Shown: positions 1 to 60,000 of the stretch, one piece after another
How positions within the stretch are numbered: position 1 is the first letter of the stretch
Layout of the letters: each line of letters begins with the position of its first letter
Assembly: GCA_951406725.2 (NCBI GenBank)
Contig: OX597817.1
Location: 131,068,001 to 131,132,000 of the forward strand
Direction of reading: 5' to 3'
Origin: Octopus vulgaris
Taxonomy: Eukaryota
DNA length: 64,000 nucleotides
Made by a program: the position numbers

Positions 1-3000
1 TCTTCTTCTTCCCTACCAAGAATTCACTACGACCTCGGACCCACAAGTGTAAACAAGAGAGACAGAGAAAGGCAGAAACAAGGAAAATGCCACTTATATT
101 TGAACACTATACAAATATTCTTTTAAAAAACTTTTCTTTAATTTTTCTAAATTTAATTATTTAATTGTTACAGTTGAAAAGGTCTCAAATGACTGAAACC
201 GGTACTGAAATGTTCTTTATAAAATCATTTTAGCATTTTCTATCTTGACTTGTTTTTCATATATATATATATATATATATATATATATATATATATATAT
301 ATATAGAGAGAGAGAGAGAGAGAGAGAGAGAAGAGTACAGTGTACTTTCAAACACAAAAGAGATACCCGAAGAATAGGATATCTGACTCGCTAGAAAGTC
401 AGATATCCTAGCAAGTCAAATATACTATTCTTCGAGTATCTCTTTTGTGTTTGAACGTACACTGTATTCTTCTCTCTCTCTCTCTCTCTCTCTCTCTCTC
501 TCTCTCTCTATATATATATATATATATATATATATATATATATATATGCATATACATACATATACATACATGCATACACACACACACATATATATATATA
601 TATATAATAAAATAATAGGGAATAAATCCAAACTTACAGGGAAAAATCAGATTTAGGATTAAATCCAATTTTATAGTAAAATATTATATTATATTAAATT
701 AGAGATAAAACCACTATTAGGCAAATCAAACAATGAAAAACTTAAACCAATACATAAAATTAATTAATTTATATTATTTTAAATATATATCAAAAGTATT
801 AAAAGTTTAATAAAAGATAATGAGTAAAACACTACGATCGTTTCATGGCTGTCCAATTTGTAATAATTCGAGTTATGGTTACAGTCAATCTTCAGGTAAT
901 TGAAATATTTATCTTAGCGAGTTCATTGCTAAACCTCGCTAAGATAAATATTTCAATTACCTGAAGATTGACTGTAACCATAACTCGAATTATTACAAAT
1001 TGGACAGCCATGAAACGATCGTAGTGTTTTACTCATTATCTTTTATTAAACTTTTAATACTTTTGATATATTTAAAATAATATAAATTAATTAATTTTAT
1101 GTATTGGCTTAAGTTTTTCATTGTTTGATTTGCCTAATAGTGGTTTTATCTCTAATTTAATATTATATATATATATATATATATATATATATATATATAT
1201 ATATATATATATATATATATATGTGTGTGTGTGTGTGTGTGTGTATGTGTGTGTGTGTGTGTGTATGTGTGTGTGTATATGTACATATATATATTACAGA
1301 AAAAAGGATAAAAAAATCTTAGGCAGGACGAGTATCTCATGTCATTTAGAATATTTTGGAGATGACTTACATCTGTTTCTGTAATATGCCATGTGATATT
1401 TTAGCATCCCATACACTGGTTATTCTATCATCAGATACAAGGTGGGTATGTGGGGTAGCGCTAGATAACGAATTCACAGTTTATGAAAGAATGAAATAGT
1501 AGAGAAGAACAAAGTGTAAAACAATAGGTATAAGAATACATATCGGTTTCTTCTCGCTACTATTTTACACTTTATACTTCTATCTACTATTCTATTCCTT
1601 TATACACTTTGAATTCTCTGTCTAGAGCTACCCCACATACACCTTCTCTTTGATGATAGAATACCCTGTGTATGGAGATGCTGACCTATCACTTGGGATA
1701 TCCCAGAAACAGCTGTAAAACAATAAATATACTAAATGAATTGAGTTGCTCGTGCTGCATTGGTTTTGTCGTCCACTTTTCCCCTGTTATACACCTGAAA
1801 CCTCGAAAGCCTACAACGGATCCCTAGCTCCGGCCCAGTTGTGAACTCGGAACCCTACAGATGACCAATTACAGCACTTACACAATTGACCTATTCGTTT
1901 AGACGACTTTTTATGAGCTACTAATATTTTCATGTAAATGGAAACACTTAGACATCACATCATGACACAACTGGTGCCTTCATGCAACCTTAATCTCTGT
2001 CTACCAGATATAATGAGAAAGTGAAGAATCGAGAAAGAAGTTGATGGAAAAGGTGGAAGGTTGAAAACACCGGAAAATAGAAAAGAACACAAACTGGGGT
2101 AGGGAATTAGAGCTATGTCCTTTTTGATAGGGGCCCAGAATCTCTTCAATCCGTAGAAGGTGGTATTTTCCGATTTGTCAGCAGAAAATATCGATATGTT
2201 TGCATCCGCTGCAAATTTCAGATCTGGAATTCAGCCGTGTGGTGGAGCCTTCGGTCTGAAAAACATATTCCAGCTGCGTATAGCTTACATTGTTTTGATT
2301 CGATGACATATGTTGTGGACTTGACAAATATTTCTCCACCTTATTGTATATGATATGGCGTTAAACTTCGAACTCCGAACAAAGGAAGACAACTTAGTGG
2401 CTTTATACTTGTCACTTGCCGGAAAGAATATATGTGGTTAGCGGTTTCTAAAAGCGCCTTCCCTTTACCCGATGTGGATCTTCTCTTTCACTTAGGTTAT
2501 GAAGTACTGGTGATCCCAAAACGAACGTTCGCGTACGTGTGTGTGTATGTGAGAGTGTGTGTGTGCGTGTGGTTAGGGGCTAATGACTGACGTGTGGATG
2601 TATGTGGCTGTAATGTGTGGGTGTGAGGATGATGGTTTGTGGGTGTGCAGATGTGAATGCTGGGAAGTGGCCAGTGCTAGAATGTGTGGGGTGATGTGAG
2701 GTAGTGTGATGTGGTGTGGTGCTGTATGGTGTGGTGTGGCAGTGTGGGGTGTGGGGATGTGAGGGTGGGGTGTGGGTTTGGGGTGAAGATGTGGGGTGAG
2801 GATGTGGAGGTGGGATGAGGATATGGGGTGGAGGTGTGTGAGTAGGGGTGGGGTATGTAGAGTTGGATGTGTGGGGGTGGATTGTGGATGGAAGGGGTAT
2901 CAATCAAGAGAGAAGGTGTGTAGGAGTGAAGAGACGAAGTAGGTGTCAGGGCAGGAGAGAAGAGGAGAAGTGGGTAGGAATGAAGACAAGAGAGGAGGGG

Positions 3001-57000: not shown

Positions 57001-60000
57001 CAGTGCCCCAGCATGGTCACAGTCTTATGACTGAAACAAGTAAATCGAAAGAAATGAAAAGAAATACGAAATTATGTTTAAAGTTTATTAACCCTTTAAA
57101 CAATTAATAATAGTGTTCGTAACATATTTTACAGTGAGACCGAAAATTGAAATCAAAAACATCGGCACCGAACACATAGTAATGGCCAAATGTTCGTATC
57201 CTCGGACAAGAATCAAATGTTACTATGGACAGGTAAGTCAACTGAATATTGTGTCTTTGAACCCATCTGGCGGATGATAGATTTTTGGGTCACAACTTTT
57301 CAAATTTTGAAATTTAGTGAAAAATTTCACAATTAGAAAAAGTTTAGAAAGGTTTAAAGTGATTATTTTTAACCAATCAGGAAACAGAAGCTGGAAGCCA
57401 GTATTTTCTGCTGGATAGCTGTGTGTGATAACATCTTAAGTGTGTGCCTGTGTGTGCTGAGAGAGGGTTAAAAAGCGATTTAAGTTAACAGATAAATCAA
57501 TCGGTTTTAATGTGAAAAATATATATACAGATAAACATACAAACAGAGAAAGCTGACTTAAAGGTTGCAGATGATATGCCATCAAGTATAAGTGAGCTAC
57601 TAGATGTAGGAGGAAAGAGTAAGGGTAAGTTGTGGCGAAACATTCAGCAGAAGTTCGCAGTTACCTTCTGCTGCAGTCGCGTGGAACTTAGGTTTTTTCA
57701 CTCATAAACACTCTCATCGCCCGGGCTGAGATTCGAACCGGCAATCCATCGACGCGAGTCCGCTGCTCTAACCGCTTGGCTATCCTCCACAATTGTCTAT
57801 GTATATATATATATATATATATATATATATATATATATATATATATTAATATACATACATACATATATATATATATATATATATATATATATATATATAT
57901 ATATATATATATATATTAGGGCAAGACTGCTAGGTAGTCGGCCGTATGCTAGAAATAGATCATCAACGATCAAACTACAAAGAAAGTTCTCTAGAGGAGA
58001 TCGTTGATGATCTATTTCTAGCATACGGCCGACTACCTAGCAGTCTTGCCCTGCCAATATACACATATATTAGAATTTTCTCTGATTTCTCAGATTTTTA
58101 TGCTAGACTACTGGTTTTAAATTGATATTAAAATTAATATTAATTCATCTCCCTCATTATTTAAATATTGAAATAAATACGTTCTCTAGTAGCAAGCACT
58201 AACCGCAGTGAATTATTTACTGCAGTTCTTCGCTTCAGGAATTTTTTAGCGCGCCGGAACTAAGACATTTGAAATTTTATCCCTAATGTAATCGGTAAAA
58301 CTAAGCACGTGTCTGTCTTGGCACAGAAAGCTGGGGTTAGTTTTTCAGGTTGCATTTACACTGAACGATTGTACTGATGAGGCTACGGACATTTGAATTA
58401 TGTAAGTAATTCTTTTGTTAAAGGCCGAAACCGAGGTATGCAATTAATTCTGTTTTTATATAAATTTTCATCTGTCCTGCCCGCCAAATTTGGTTCTGGT
58501 GTTCGCTGAATTTTTCCTCTAGAGAACTTTCTTTGTAGTTTGATCGTTGATGACCTATTTCTAGCATACGGCCGACTACCTAGCAGTCTTGCCCTGCCAA
58601 TATACACATATATTAGAATTTTCTCTGATTTCTCAGATTTTTTGTATGCTAGACTACTGGTTTTAAATTGATATTAAAATTAATATTAATTTATCTCCCT
58701 CATTATTATATATATATATATATATATATATATATATATATATATACATACACACACACATATATATACACATATATATATATATATATATATATACACA
58801 TAAATATATAAAATCTTTTCTATCACTGTTTCCAATGCCTTCTCAAAAGTTTCGACGAAATAAGATCAAATTTTACATGGGAATACCAGGAGTTTTAGCA
58901 TGTACTTTTGGGGATTGAAACAATGCAGCATTGGCACTGGTTCCCTATTGCGTCTCAATACACAAAGAATAAAAGTGAAACCATTGACGGAGTAACAGTT
59001 ATAAATAGCTAAACTTTTATATTTTTGCTTCACCTTTAATGGTTTCACTATGTGTATATATATATATATATATATATATATATATATACATATATAGCCT
59101 CAAGCCGACCAAATCCTTGTGAATGGATTACGTACGCAGGAACGGAAACTACACTGTCGCATATATGAGTATATTTGTGTGTAGATGTATTTCTGTGTTC
59201 GTGCTTCCCACCGTCCTTTGACAACCGTTGTTGCGGTGTTTACGACTCCGTAACATAGCGGTTGGCCAAACTATACTGATAGAATACGCACTAGGTTTAG
59301 AAATAATAAATCCTGTGATCGCATTATTCGACTAAAGTCGGTACACCAGCATGGCCGCAGTCAAATGACAAAGAAGTAGAATAATAAAAGTCTATGCTAT
59401 TTTAATCTCGAGCCTGGTGTATATGCTAGTATATATACATACATATACATATATATATATATATATATATATATATATATATATATATATATATATATAT
59501 ATATATTTACATACATATACATATATATATATATATATATATATATATATATATATATATATATATATATATAAGCGTGGGTGTGTGGTAGAAGCTTACT
59601 GCCCACTCACATGCTTACGAGTTCAGTACGAAACCGTAGTAGATTGGTCTACTCTTTTGTTGAATGAAAAGTTATGGGTCCGTAAGGATACTCCCAACGC
59701 GTTCGATGTGCCAATGGGAAGCTCAGATAGCGCCCAGGTGGCCAATTTGGTCGGAATCTATATTCTATATGAATTAGCCGACTAATTCCCGGACATATGC
59801 GGCGGTCTGTATCGAGACGATTGTCTTTTTTACCTACAGAATGCCCCTAACAGTAGGATACAGAAGACTAAAAATAGATTAGTTAGATTTTTCAGCAGGA
59901 TGGGCATGAGCATAATTTTTGACAACGAACTAACTAAGGCCAATTTCTTAGATGTTACCCTAAATTTGCATAATAATTCTTACTTCCCTTACCATAAGCC

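What the first reader, a model, noticed from the sequence alone, without database searches (positions are those of the whole stretch)
306..58708. A shared fold-back architecture across at least 10 insertions in (TA)n: inverted arm, direct arm, unpaired tail
Seen: fold-backs at 331-471, 605-1163, 7942-10864, 10911-11940, 15145-15607, 24086-24235, 45873-46122, 46128-46408, 55963-56262, 56287-56634 and 57918-58708. Nearly all have one arm extended by a 30-110 nt tail absent from the other arm. They resemble MITEs, but the asymmetry and the hammerheads point to PLE pseudo-LTRs with a 5' inversion. Inference: this is a TA-targeted retrotransposition footprint in which cDNA folds back or switches template; it seeds large palindromes and may help generate or expand TA arrays.
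Basis: partly seen in the sequence, partly recalled or inferred. Interest (0 to 1): 0.8.

Follow-up and report, generated by a model that had tools for sequence, protein, structure and literature searches.

The report
Penelope-like retroelement footprints in TA repeats
The fold-backs are real and are best read as short, truncated or non-coding copies of Penelope-like retrotransposons inserted into (TA)n repeats, with an insertion architecture that is already described in print for this class.

Summary
Observation confirmed. All 11 intervals are genuine inverted repeats. Nine of 11 carry a 37-110 nt one-sided tail. Eighteen of 22 outer ends lie within 12 nt of a (TA)>=6 run, against 5.7% of window positions.

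- The window encodes a PLE protein with reverse transcriptase and GIY-YIG endonuclease. It is a 5'-truncated copy at 5175-6599 with an inverted C-terminal copy at 3023-3335, the same architecture at kilobase scale.
- A type-I hammerhead descriptor finds 7 sites; 200 composition-matched simulations averaged 0.01. Each site is sense to its element's 3' end. Five of the 11 fold-backs carry one.
- One fold-back has a partial tandem (pseudo-LTR).
- The three copies of family A share fixed outer ends but differ in inner junction.

Inverted 5'-truncated copy, pseudo-LTR, one-sided tail and (TA)n preference are all published for PLEs (PMC8557442). Cleavage and extension of both strands and two RT start sites are shown in vitro (PMC11167929).

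Caveats: Rfam hammerhead models score none of the 4 sites tested. No short family could be joined by sequence to a PLE ORF. Fold-back versus dual priming, and any role in TA-array growth, remain open.

Ordinary but cleanly resolved; interest low to moderate.

The parts
306..510 (.). Fold-back F1. Palindrome whose arms run out into (GA)n on the left and (TC)n on the right, with (TA)n on both sides. No tail and no hammerhead. Membership uncertain.
606..1163 (-). Family A copy 1. Tail 606-690 (85 nt, the 3' end on the minus strand). Direct arm 691-921, 13-nt loop, inverted arm 935-1163. A degenerate hammerhead lies in each arm (895 minus, 961 plus).
7943..10863 (-). Fold-back F3. Tail 7943-8011 (69 nt). 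Direct arm 8012-8157, inverted arm 10719-10863 (143/145). The 2.56-kb spacer is rich in microsatellites. Hammerhead descriptor hits in both arms (8073 minus, 10802 plus).
10912..11937 (-). Family A copy 2. Tail about 10912-11005. Long direct copy running to about 11862. Inverted arm of about 76 nt at the right end. Degenerate hammerhead at 11234 (minus).
15145..15605 (+). Fold-back C. Inverted arm 15145-15320, 15-nt loop, direct arm 15336-15511 (178-nt arms at 100%), tail 15512-15605 (94 nt). No hammerhead.
24088..24235 (+). Fold-back D. Arms of about 53 nt with a short loop and a 37-nt tail. A solo copy of the same family at 218-258 ends at the proximal site, with no tail and no inverted arm.
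45873..46122 (+). Fold-back E. Perfect 190-nt palindrome at 45873-46062 plus a 60-nt tail.
46128..46408 (.). Fold-back F. Palindrome 46128-46369 (220/238). The claimed tail cannot be verified. It sits next to a Tc1-like HTH ORF and has no long (TA)n on either side.
55963..56260 (+). Fold-back G. Inverted arm 55963-56026, direct arm 56129-56188, tail 56189-56260 (72 nt) ending at (TA)n. Its left end abuts element H.
56287..56634 (-). Family A copy 3. Tail 56287-56374 (88 nt). The direct copy carries the best family-A hammerhead (56528 minus). Inverted arm of about 82 nt at the right end.
57917..58708 (+). Fold-back B. Inverted arm 57917-57998. Partial tandem (pseudo-LTR) 57999-58168 equals 58542-58715 at 96%. 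Full unit 58169-58708 with a hammerhead at 58374-58438. Tail of about 110 nt.
3006..6612 (+). PLE1. 5'-truncated PLE coding copy (RT through GIY-YIG, residues about 324-798 of about 803) at 5175-6599. An inverted copy of the C-terminal about 105 residues lies at 3023-3335 (minus). Arms 3006-3338 and 6279-6612 are 77.7% alike.
59574..62254 (+). PLE2. Degenerate 5'-truncated PLE-like copy with weak, collinear RT and GIY-YIG matches, a hammerhead at 61970, and (TA)n on both sides.
55340..55962 (-). Element H. Hammerhead at 55890 (minus). Its 3' end abuts the (TA)n run at 55277-55339. It lies head-to-head with G.
19840..19967 (+). Hammerhead with an 8-bp helix II at 19846. The element's 3' end is about 39 nt downstream, at a TA-rich array.

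Best explanation
Each fold-back is the scar of one insertion of a Penelope-like element (PLE) RNA, or of a short non-coding RNA mobilised by a PLE enzyme, into a (TA)n array.

Proposed mechanism:
1. The GIY-YIG endonuclease cuts both strands of the TA repeat.
2. Each free 3' end primes reverse transcription of element RNA.
3. One cDNA starts at the distal start site, at the very 3' end, and so carries the tail.
4. The other starts at a proximal site 37-110 nt upstream and so lacks the tail.
5. Both cDNAs are usually 5'-truncated and end up head-to-head with their 3' ends facing outward. This gives inverted arm, direct arm and one-sided tail.
6. If both cDNAs reach the same RNA 5' end, the result is a near-perfect palindrome with a tiny loop. 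If the second stops early, the inverted arm is short.
7. Multimeric template RNA gives the partial tandem (pseudo-LTR) seen at 57999-58708.

Shown here: the anatomy, the TA context, PLE coding sequence in the window, the hammerhead motifs and their orientation, and fixed outer versus variable inner ends.

Inferred from the literature: cutting and extension of both strands and two RT start sites, demonstrated in vitro for an Anolis PLE.

My own inference: that this is what happened at these sites, and that the short families use a PLE enzyme in trans.
For: 1. PLE protein in the window.
- ORF 5316-6554 has RT and GIY-YIG matches in the right order, both below Pfam's cut-off (E 0.014 and 0.018).
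- It is 54-56% identical over 100% of its length to proteins of about 800-900 aa (E down to 8e-146).
- The precomputed domains of those proteins include PF00078 and, in 29 of the 120 listed by my count, PF01541 GIY-YIG.
- tblastn with 8 of these proteins maps a direct 5'-truncated copy and an inverted C-terminal copy. This is the same architecture as the small fold-backs.

2. Hammerheads.
- A full type-I descriptor was used: CUGANGA, helix II, GAAA, A-U plus at least 1 bp of helix III, H17, and helix I of at least 4 bp.
- It hits 7 sites, 6 independent. Two hundred first-order Markov simulations gave a mean of 0.01 and a maximum of 1.
- A relaxed scan adds the decayed family-A copies.
- Helix III is A-U plus C-G (A-U plus U-A at one site) with a 4-nt loop at 5 of the 6 independent sites; 4 of the 6 loops are palindromic. 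F3 has a longer helix III (CAG/CUG) with an 8-nt loop. Helix I is 5-7 bp. Both features match metazoan and PLE hammerheads as described in PMC4209133.
- Helix I sequences differ between families while keeping their pairing.
- All 8 elements with a hammerhead have it sense to the tail or 3' end.

3. Family A.
- The three copies share the same distal end and the same outer end of the inverted arm.
- Inverted arm lengths are 229, about 76 and about 82 nt.
- Each inverted arm carries the private substitutions of its own direct copy.
- Arms are 99-100% alike, whereas copies differ by 9-14%.

4. The D-family solo copy ends at the proximal site with no tail. This fits two alternative start sites.

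5. Partial tandem in B, 96% over 174 nt.

6. TA context: 18 of 22 ends.

7. At least 8 families share the architecture but not sequence. This points to a shared mechanism rather than shared ancestry.

8. Published match.
- PMC8557442 describes 5' truncation, partial tandems, an adjacent inverted 5'-truncated copy, a one-ended 30-40 bp tail and a (TA)n target bias.
- PMC11167929 shows that the protein cleaves and extends both strands and that the tail is the sequence between two RT start sites.
Against: - Rfam 15 hammerhead models report nothing. There were 0 matches at gathering score over the whole window. At E<=10 there was no hammerhead match on the stretches holding 4 of the sites.
- MFE folds show the full three-helix junction in only 3 of the 7 sequences folded (one interval was cut short of helix I's 3' strand), with unremarkable z-scores.
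- No self-cleavage was tested.
- Six of the 11 fold-backs have no hammerhead motif.
- None of the short families shows nucleotide similarity to the 3' regions of PLE1 or PLE2, so no autonomous partner is identified.
- PLE1 itself is flanked by GA/CT-rich sequence, not (TA)n.
- PLE2's protein matches are weak: hhalign probabilities of 24.6%, 2.3% and 0.1%.
- Tails here are 37-110 nt, against 30-40 bp in print.
- Target-site duplications cannot be read inside (TA)n.
- F1 and F lack the tail.
- Families C, D, E and G are judged by analogy: each shows the inverted-arm-plus-tail form only once (D also has a tail-less solo copy).
Confidence: 0.72

Rival explanations
1. Same PLE-type retrotransposition, but the inverted arm arises. 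A single cDNA reaches the 5' end of its template. It then snaps back or switches template onto itself, copying the nascent cDNA to make the inverted arm.
For: Seven of the 11 fold-backs have arms that meet symmetrically: A1, C, D, E, F and F1 with loops of about 4-48 nt, and B with about 28 nt. F3's arms are truncated at the same point. Arm identity is 99-100% in A1, C and E.
Against: - The outer end of the inverted arm is fixed at the proximal site and never includes the tail. A strand copying the first cDNA back to its start should also copy the tail.
- A2, A3, G and PLE1 have an inverted arm much shorter than the direct copy. Simple snap-back at the cDNA tip does not give this.
- A1 and A3 direct copies begin at the same position. 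So symmetry can arise simply because both cDNAs reach one RNA 5' end.
- Both-strand cleavage and extension have been shown in vitro (PMC11167929).
Confidence: 0.2
2. The fold-backs are TA-targeting DNA-transposon derivatives, such as Tc1/mariner-type MITEs or Foldback-like elements. They land in (TA)n because their target is TA, and the tails are unrelated neighbouring fragments.
For: - They are palindromic, short, non-coding and sit in TA.
- A Tc1-like HTH ORF lies beside fold-back F.
- F1's arms contain a TACAGTG-type end that I recall as typical of Tc1 inverted repeats (recalled, no call).
- F1 and F have no verifiable tail.
Against: - The tail is the same sequence, on the same side, in all 3 family-A copies. 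In B it sits inside a tandem unit, so it belongs to the element.
- Termini are asymmetric in 9 of 11.
- The D solo copy is 5'-truncated with no inverted partner.
- Hammerhead motifs are sense to the tail.
- Inner junctions vary between copies.
- No DDE domain was found in 179 ORFs scanned.
Confidence: 0.06
3. The perfect palindromes are sequencing or assembly artefacts, such as chimeric fold-back reads.
For: Arms are 100% identical with tiny loops in C and E. TA-rich repeats are hard to assemble.
Against: - The palindromes are only 150-560 nt and end exactly at element boundaries.
- They carry a one-sided tail and recur as a family with diverged copies.
- Older versions exist at 77-89% arm identity, which artefacts would not show.
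Confidence: 0.02

Closest known systems
Penelope-like elements (PLEs) with a C-terminal GIY-YIG endonuclease (Penelope/Poseidon, Neptune, Nematis, Hydra clades) and Naiad PLEs
   Same: - 5' truncation, partial tandem pseudo-LTR, an adjacent inverted 5'-truncated copy and a one-ended tail.
- Hammerhead motifs and insertion bias for (TA)n (PMC8557442; PMC8969392).
- The PLE1 ORF has a CX4CX2C motif before GIY-YIG. The paper describes this for Neptune, Nematis and Naiad and suggests it may be linked to (TA)n recognition.
   Different: - Most fold-backs here are 150-1000 nt and non-coding.
- Tails are 37-110 nt rather than 30-40 bp.
- No short family could be tied by sequence to a coding PLE.
- Naiads are reported to lack canonical hammerheads, whereas several families here have them.
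- The clade of PLE1 was not determined.
Anolis Poseidon PLE (PAc) in vitro system (PMC11167929)
   Same: - It supplies the mechanism: cleavage and extension of both strands at AT-rich DNA, two adjacent internal RT start sites, and the tail as the sequence between them.
- Its hammerhead lies about 85-92 nt upstream of the start sites. Here the hammerhead lies about 23-160 nt upstream of the proximal site (my count).
   Different: [quoted passage not shown]
- Here the sequence just after the proximal site, and the distal end, are mostly A/T-rich and TA-like, so base pairing with the (TA)n primer is possible. This was not tested statistically.
Animal non-LTR retrozymes (tandem hammerhead repeats, non-autonomous PLE derivatives; bioRxiv 10.64898/2026.07.22.740005)
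   Same: Short non-coding units carrying a type-I hammerhead, proposed to derive from PLE pseudo-LTRs. Monomers and dimers occur.
   Different: - Retrozymes are defined by head-to-tail tandem units.
- Here only B has 1.3 units. The rest are head-to-head inverted copies, and 6 of 11 have no hammerhead.
LINE-1 twin priming (5' inversion); recalled, no paper read
   Same: A second target-strand end primes reverse transcription, which gives an inverted 5' segment.
   Different: Twin priming inverts a different segment of one RNA without duplicating it. Here the two arms duplicate the same 3'-proximal segment.
Tc1/mariner-derived MITEs and Foldback elements
   Same: Short, palindromic, non-coding and found at TA.
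   Different: The elements here have asymmetric ends with a constant one-sided tail, variable inner junctions, sense hammerheads and tandem units.

Membership tests
Penelope-like element insertion | Linked to a single ORF with PLE-type RT plus GIY-YIG endonuclease, either in cis or through a family consensus | tested here: inconclusive
   A PLE RT+GIY-YIG ORF is in the window and shows the same inverted-copy layout. None of the short families matches the 3' regions of PLE1 or PLE2. No genome was available to extend the family consensus sequences.
Penelope-like element insertion | Inverted 5'-truncated copy directly adjacent to the direct copy, with 3' ends facing outward | tested here: met
   All 11 intervals have an inverted repeat. 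The outward 3' ends follow from the tail and hammerhead orientation, which could be read in 9 of 11.
Penelope-like element insertion | Short extension (tail) present at one end only | tested here: met
   9 of 11, at 37-110 nt. The tail is constant in the 3 family-A copies. It is absent in F1 and unverifiable in F.
Penelope-like element insertion | Partial tandem forming a pseudo-LTR | tested here: inconclusive
   Seen only in B: 57999-58168 equals 58542-58715 at 96%. The other fold-backs are too truncated to show it.
Penelope-like element insertion | Fixed 3' end with variable 5' truncation among copies | tested here: met
   Family A has 3 copies with identical outer ends and different inner junctions. 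The D solo copy is 5'-truncated. The other families show the fold-back form only once here.
Penelope-like element insertion | Microsatellite, here (TA)n, insertion bias | tested here: met
   18 of 22 ends lie within 12 nt of a (TA)>=6 run, against a 5.7% background. PLE2 is also flanked by (TA)n on both sides.
Hammerhead ribozyme, type I | Conserved core (CUGANGA, GAAA, H17) with helices I, II and III in the right register | tested here: met
   7 descriptor sites against a mean of 0.01 in 200 simulations. 5 of the 11 fold-backs carry one once the relaxed hits are counted.
Hammerhead ribozyme, type I | Match to a curated covariance model (Rfam hammerhead families) | tested here: not met
   No match at gathering score. 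No hammerhead match at E<=10 on the stretches holding 4 sites.
Hammerhead ribozyme, type I | Self-cleavage | not testable with these tools
   This needs in vitro transcription of monomer and dimer constructs.
Non-LTR retrozyme | Head-to-tail tandem repeats, each unit carrying a hammerhead | tested here: not met
   Only B has 1.3 units with one hammerhead. The other fold-backs are inverted, not tandem.
Tc1/mariner-type MITE | Symmetric terminal inverted repeats at both ends, flanked by a TA duplication | tested here: not met
   Ends are asymmetric in 9 of 11. A TA duplication cannot be read inside (TA)n. This remains open for F1 and F.

The most novel reading that the evidence does not exclude
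In TA-targeting PLEs, the two reverse-transcription start sites may be chosen by base pairing. The nicked (TA)n end would pair with two A/U-rich, TA-like patches in the template RNA, one at the 3' terminus and one 37-110 nt upstream.

One rule would then explain TA targeting, the one-sided tail and its family-specific length.

A shared CCCT motif lies within the last 20 nt of the tail in four sequence-unrelated families (A, B, C, D). It would be the enzyme's 3' recognition signal and would allow many unrelated short RNAs to be mobilised in trans.

This differs from the published Anolis result, where initiation is reported as not homologous to the cut DNA.
Probability: 0.2. Interest if true: 0.5.

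Novelty: new member of a known kind. Interest (0 to 1): 0.28.

Why it matters
These palindromes are neither MITEs nor assembly errors. They are the standard footprint of a retrotransposon class that annotation pipelines often miss or mislabel.

One 64-kb window holds at least 8 sequence-unrelated short families with the same scar. It also holds two coding remnants and six independent hammerhead motifs. PLE machinery therefore appears to have been a major shaper of the TA-repeat landscape in this genome.

For specialists the window offers natural examples that bear on the still unsettled integration mechanism:
- fixed proximal and distal ends;
- long tails;
- symmetric versus asymmetric junctions.

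The architecture itself is already in print.

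Tried and rejected
- **Rfam.** The whole window at E<=1 gave 194 matches, of which 150 were shown. All shown were microRNA-like hits on microsatellites or palindromes; the 44 unlisted were not seen. At gathering score there were 0 matches. Three local scans at E<=10 gave no hammerhead.
- **tRNA scan.** None found.
- **Pfam.** 179 stop-to-stop ORFs were scanned at E<=0.01 (30, 149). No GIY-YIG, PLE-specific or DDE domain was found. The PLE ORF surfaced only by eye and at E<=10.
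- **Organism.** The LINE ORF's best relatives are only 47-48% identical, so the organism stays unknown. I did not try to trace any sample.
- **Link between families.** Sensitive blastn between sense-oriented families and the PLE 3' regions showed only family A self-similarity plus weak AT-rich or CT-rich noise.
- **MFE folding of 7 hammerhead stretches.** Support was only partial. My first interval for B cut off helix I's 3' strand.
- **hhalign of PLE2 ORFs against a 14-protein PLE profile.** Matches were collinear but weak.
- **TA-run length.** Median 48.5 nt next to elements against 19 nt elsewhere, P 0.0014. Rejected as evidence for array expansion, because larger arrays are also larger targets.
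- **Literature on a PLE snap-back mechanism.** The search listed no paper on a PLE snap-back mechanism.

Full report
**1. The window**

The window is 64 kb of AT-rich eukaryotic DNA with no N. It has 68 runs of (TA)>=6 covering 3.6% of the bases. It is a mosaic of transposable elements:
- an intact LINE ORF with AP-endonuclease and RT at 50488-53619 (minus);
- several decayed LINE fragments;
- a Tc1-like HTH ORF.

The LINE ORF's best relatives are only 47-48% identical, so the organism is unknown.

**2. The observation**

All 11 intervals are real inverted repeats. Arm identity runs from about 82% to 100%, and blastn E-values from 1e-12 to 0.

An unbiased dust-filtered self-search found 13 inverted pairs less than 5 kb apart. 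The eleventh item appears.

Reading each element in the orientation that puts the unpaired extension at the 3' end gives this order: inverted arm, short loop or spacer, direct arm, tail.
- Nine of 11 have a tail. Lengths are 37, 60, 69, 72, 85, 88, 94, 94 and about 110 nt.
- F1 (306-510) has none. Its arms run out into (GA)n and (TC)n.
- F's tail (46128-46408) cannot be separated from neighbouring sequence.
- Eight elements have both ends in (TA)n, two have one end, and one has neither. That is 18 of 22 ends against a 5.7% background.

**3. Families**

Three fold-backs (606-1163, 10912-11937, 56287-56634) are copies of one family, A. All three lie in the same orientation with the tail on the left, so the element is on the minus strand.

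The alignment shows four things:
- The distal end is the same in all three copies.
- The outer end of the inverted arm is the same in all three, and it lies exactly where the tail begins in the direct copy.
- The inverted arm is 229, about 76 and about 82 nt long.
- Each inverted arm shares the private substitutions of its own direct copy.

Arms within a copy are 99-100% alike, whereas copies differ by 9-14%. The arms were therefore made at, or kept identical since, each separate insertion.

The direct copies of A1 and A3 begin at the same position, about 30 nt upstream of the hammerhead core.

A second family, D, has a fold-back copy at 24088-24235. It also has a solo copy at 218-258 that ends at the proximal site, with no tail and no inverted arm.

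Otherwise the families are unrelated in sequence. At least eight distinct sequences share one architecture.

**4. Pseudo-LTR**

Fold-back B (57917-58708) consists of three parts:
- an 82-nt inverted arm;
- the last 173 nt of the unit, including the tail of about 110 nt;
- a full 540-nt unit that ends in the same arm and tail.

The two direct repeats are 96% alike over 174 nt. The tail lies inside a head-to-tail junction, so it belongs to the unit.

**5. Hammerheads**

Rfam finds none. Among the 150 shown of 194 weak hits there is no hammerhead; the 44 unlisted were not seen.

I wrote a full type-I descriptor. It requires CUGANGA, then helix II of at least 3 bp with one unpaired base allowed at its foot, then GAAA. 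Helix III must be A15.1-U16.1 plus at least 1 bp with a 3-10 nt loop. H17 must not be G, and helix I must be at least 4 bp directly adjoining.

It finds 7 sites:

| Site | Strand | Element |
|---|---|---|
| 10802 | + | F3, inverted arm |
| 8073 | - | F3, direct arm |
| 58374 | + | B |
| 56528 | - | A3 |
| 61970 | + | PLE2 |
| 19846 | + | unnamed element ending near 19967 |
| 55890 | - | H |

- Two hundred first-order Markov simulations in 2-kb blocks gave a mean of 0.01 and a maximum of 1.
- A relaxed version adds the decayed copies in A1 (895 minus, 961 plus) and A2 (11234 minus). It also adds three unassigned sites at 36989, 30163 and 25224.
- Helix III is A-U plus C-G (A-U plus U-A at 55890) with a 4-nt loop at 5 of the 6 independent sites. 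The loop is palindromic in 4 of the 6 (ACGT, GATC, ATAT, GGCC) and is CGAG in B. F3 instead has a longer helix III (CAG/CUG) with an 8-nt loop.
- Helix I is 5-7 bp.
- Family A and F3 have an unpaired base at the 5' foot of helix II.
- These are the traits given for metazoan type-I and PLE hammerheads, together with 'dual motifs close to each other but in opposite strands' (PMC4209133, passages read).
- MFE folding reproduces the three-helix junction in 3 of the 7 sequences folded (one interval was cut short of helix I's 3' strand), with unremarkable z-scores.
- In all 8 elements with a hammerhead, it is sense to the tail or 3' end.
- By my count, it lies about 23-160 nt upstream of the proximal site.
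- Five of the 11 fold-backs carry one. C, D, E, F, F1 and G do not. That fits 5' truncation but does not prove it.

**6. PLE coding sequence**

ORF 5316-6554 reads as an RT (Y-I-D-D box) followed by a CX4CX2C motif and a GIY-YIG box.
- Pfam gives only sub-threshold RVT_1 (E 0.014) and GIY-YIG (E 0.018) matches.
- The protein database gives 335 relatives at E<=1e-5 among 8000 scored. The best are 54-56% identical over the whole ORF and 750-900 aa long.
- Their precomputed domains include PF00078, PF28514 and PF26215. By my count 29 of the 120 listed also have PF01541. My Pfam copy does not hold PF28514 or PF26215, so I cannot name them.
- tblastn with 8 relatives places residues about 324-798 at 5175-6599 (plus). 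It places residues about 692-797 at 3335-3023 (minus).
- That matches the 77.7% inverted repeat 3006-3338/6279-6612 found.

So the window holds a coding PLE with an inverted 5'-truncated copy upstream. This is the large-scale version of the fold-backs. Its flanks are GA- and CT-rich rather than (TA)n.

A second, degenerate PLE-like copy lies at 59574-62254 between two (TA)n arrays and has a hammerhead at 61970. Its RT and GIY-YIG matches are collinear but weak: tblastn E 2e-6, hhalign E 8e-4 and 0.021.

**7. What is known**

- PMC8557442 (passages read) states that PLE insertions are strongly 5'-truncated and often form partial tandems (pseudo-LTRs).
- It adds that hammerheads typically lie in the pseudo-LTRs, and that (TA)n is a preferred Naiad target, with a link to the CX2-5CxxC motif suggested.
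- PMC8969392 repeats the main points in a curation guide.
- PMC11167929 (main text read) shows in vitro that an Anolis PLE protein cleaves and extends both strands at AT-rich DNA. Reverse transcription starts at two adjacent internal sites, and the tail is the sequence between them.
- A 2026 preprint (abstract and passages read) argues that animal retrozymes are non-autonomous PLE derivatives.

**8. Mechanism**

Cutting both strands of (TA)n leaves two 3' ends that face each other across the break. If each primes a cDNA on element RNA, the two copies lie head-to-head with their 3' ends outward, as observed.

One start at the distal site and one at the proximal site gives the one-sided tail and the fixed outer end of the inverted arm. 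The D solo copy ending at the proximal site fits this as well.

Symmetric junctions follow if both cDNAs reach the same RNA 5' end. A1 and A3 share one. Short inverted arms follow if the second cDNA stops early.

It fits less well the missing tail in the inverted arm and the asymmetric cases (A2, A3, G, PLE1). I rank it second. This ordering is inference, not demonstration.

**9. Leads beyond the literature**

- Tails here are longer than the reported 30-40 bp.
- The bases just after the proximal site and at the distal end are mostly A/T-rich and TA-like, so pairing with the (TA)n primer is possible. The way the boundary was called biases this, and I did not test it statistically.
- CCCT occurs within the last 20 nt of the tail in 4 of 10 independent families, against 4.2% of random 20-mers. 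The P of 3e-4 printed there was computed for 9 families. The motif was chosen after looking at the data.

**10. Left open**

- No autonomous partner was identified.
- Membership of F1 and F is uncertain.
- Any role in growing TA arrays is unsupported. Adjacent runs are longer, but the direction of cause cannot be told.

Noticed in passing
window 3006-6612: Coding Penelope-like element. A 5'-truncated RT + GIY-YIG copy lies at 5175-6599 (plus), and an inverted copy of its C-terminal end at 3023-3335 (minus). It has a CX4CX2C motif before GIY-YIG. Its flanks are GA- and CT-rich low-complexity sequence, not (TA)n.
   Followed up: yes
window 59574-62254: Degenerate PLE-like copy between two (TA)n arrays. 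The RT and GIY-YIG matches are weak but collinear. A hammerhead-descriptor site lies at 61970, about 212 nt before the 3' end.
   Followed up: partly
window 19840-19967 and 55340-55962: Two more hammerhead-descriptor sites, at 19846 (plus, with an 8-bp helix II) and 55890 (minus). Each belongs to an element whose 3' end abuts a TA array. The second lies head-to-head with fold-back G.
   Followed up: partly
window 218-258: Solo copy of the family of fold-back 24088-24235. It ends at the proximal site and runs straight into (TA)n, with no tail and no inverted arm.
   Followed up: partly
tails of families A, B, C and D (ends at 606, 58708, 15605 and 24235): CCCT lies within the last 20 nt of the tail in 4 of 10 otherwise unrelated families, against 4.2% of random 20-mers. 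This may be a shared 3' recognition motif. The motif was picked after looking at the data.
   Followed up: partly
window 50049-54737: An intact-looking LINE: a 1043-aa ORF with AP endonuclease and RT at 50488-53619 (minus), plus an upstream ORF with a weak Myb/SANT-like match. Its 3' side abuts the longest TA array (about 345 nt). Other LINE copies (13014-14281 is 93% alike to 48583-49853) also end near TA arrays.
   Followed up: no
window 49865-50030 and 59236-59400 (fragments at 7246-7311 and 56998-57044): A repeat of about 165 nt at 81% identity that also ends at a (TA)n array. It could be a SINE-like element. It was not characterised.
   Followed up: no
window 1323-1758: An older palindrome with 77% arm identity beside a (TG)n/(TA)n array.
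   Followed up: no
window 16560-17255 and 33619-34337: Two head-to-tail duplications of about 350-360 nt, at 78.5% and 80.6% identity. Neither has a hammerhead-descriptor hit.
   Followed up: no
window 36540-36810 and 37360-37560: An (ATA)n-type trinucleotide array faces a (TTA)n/(TTG)n array about 600 nt away. These dominate the repeat finder's list of inverted pairs but are plain microsatellites.
   Followed up: partly
whole window: Rfam's top sub-threshold hits (mir-297, mir-1277, mir-3149 and others) all fall on TA/TG microsatellites or on the palindromes. They are composition artefacts.
   Followed up: yes
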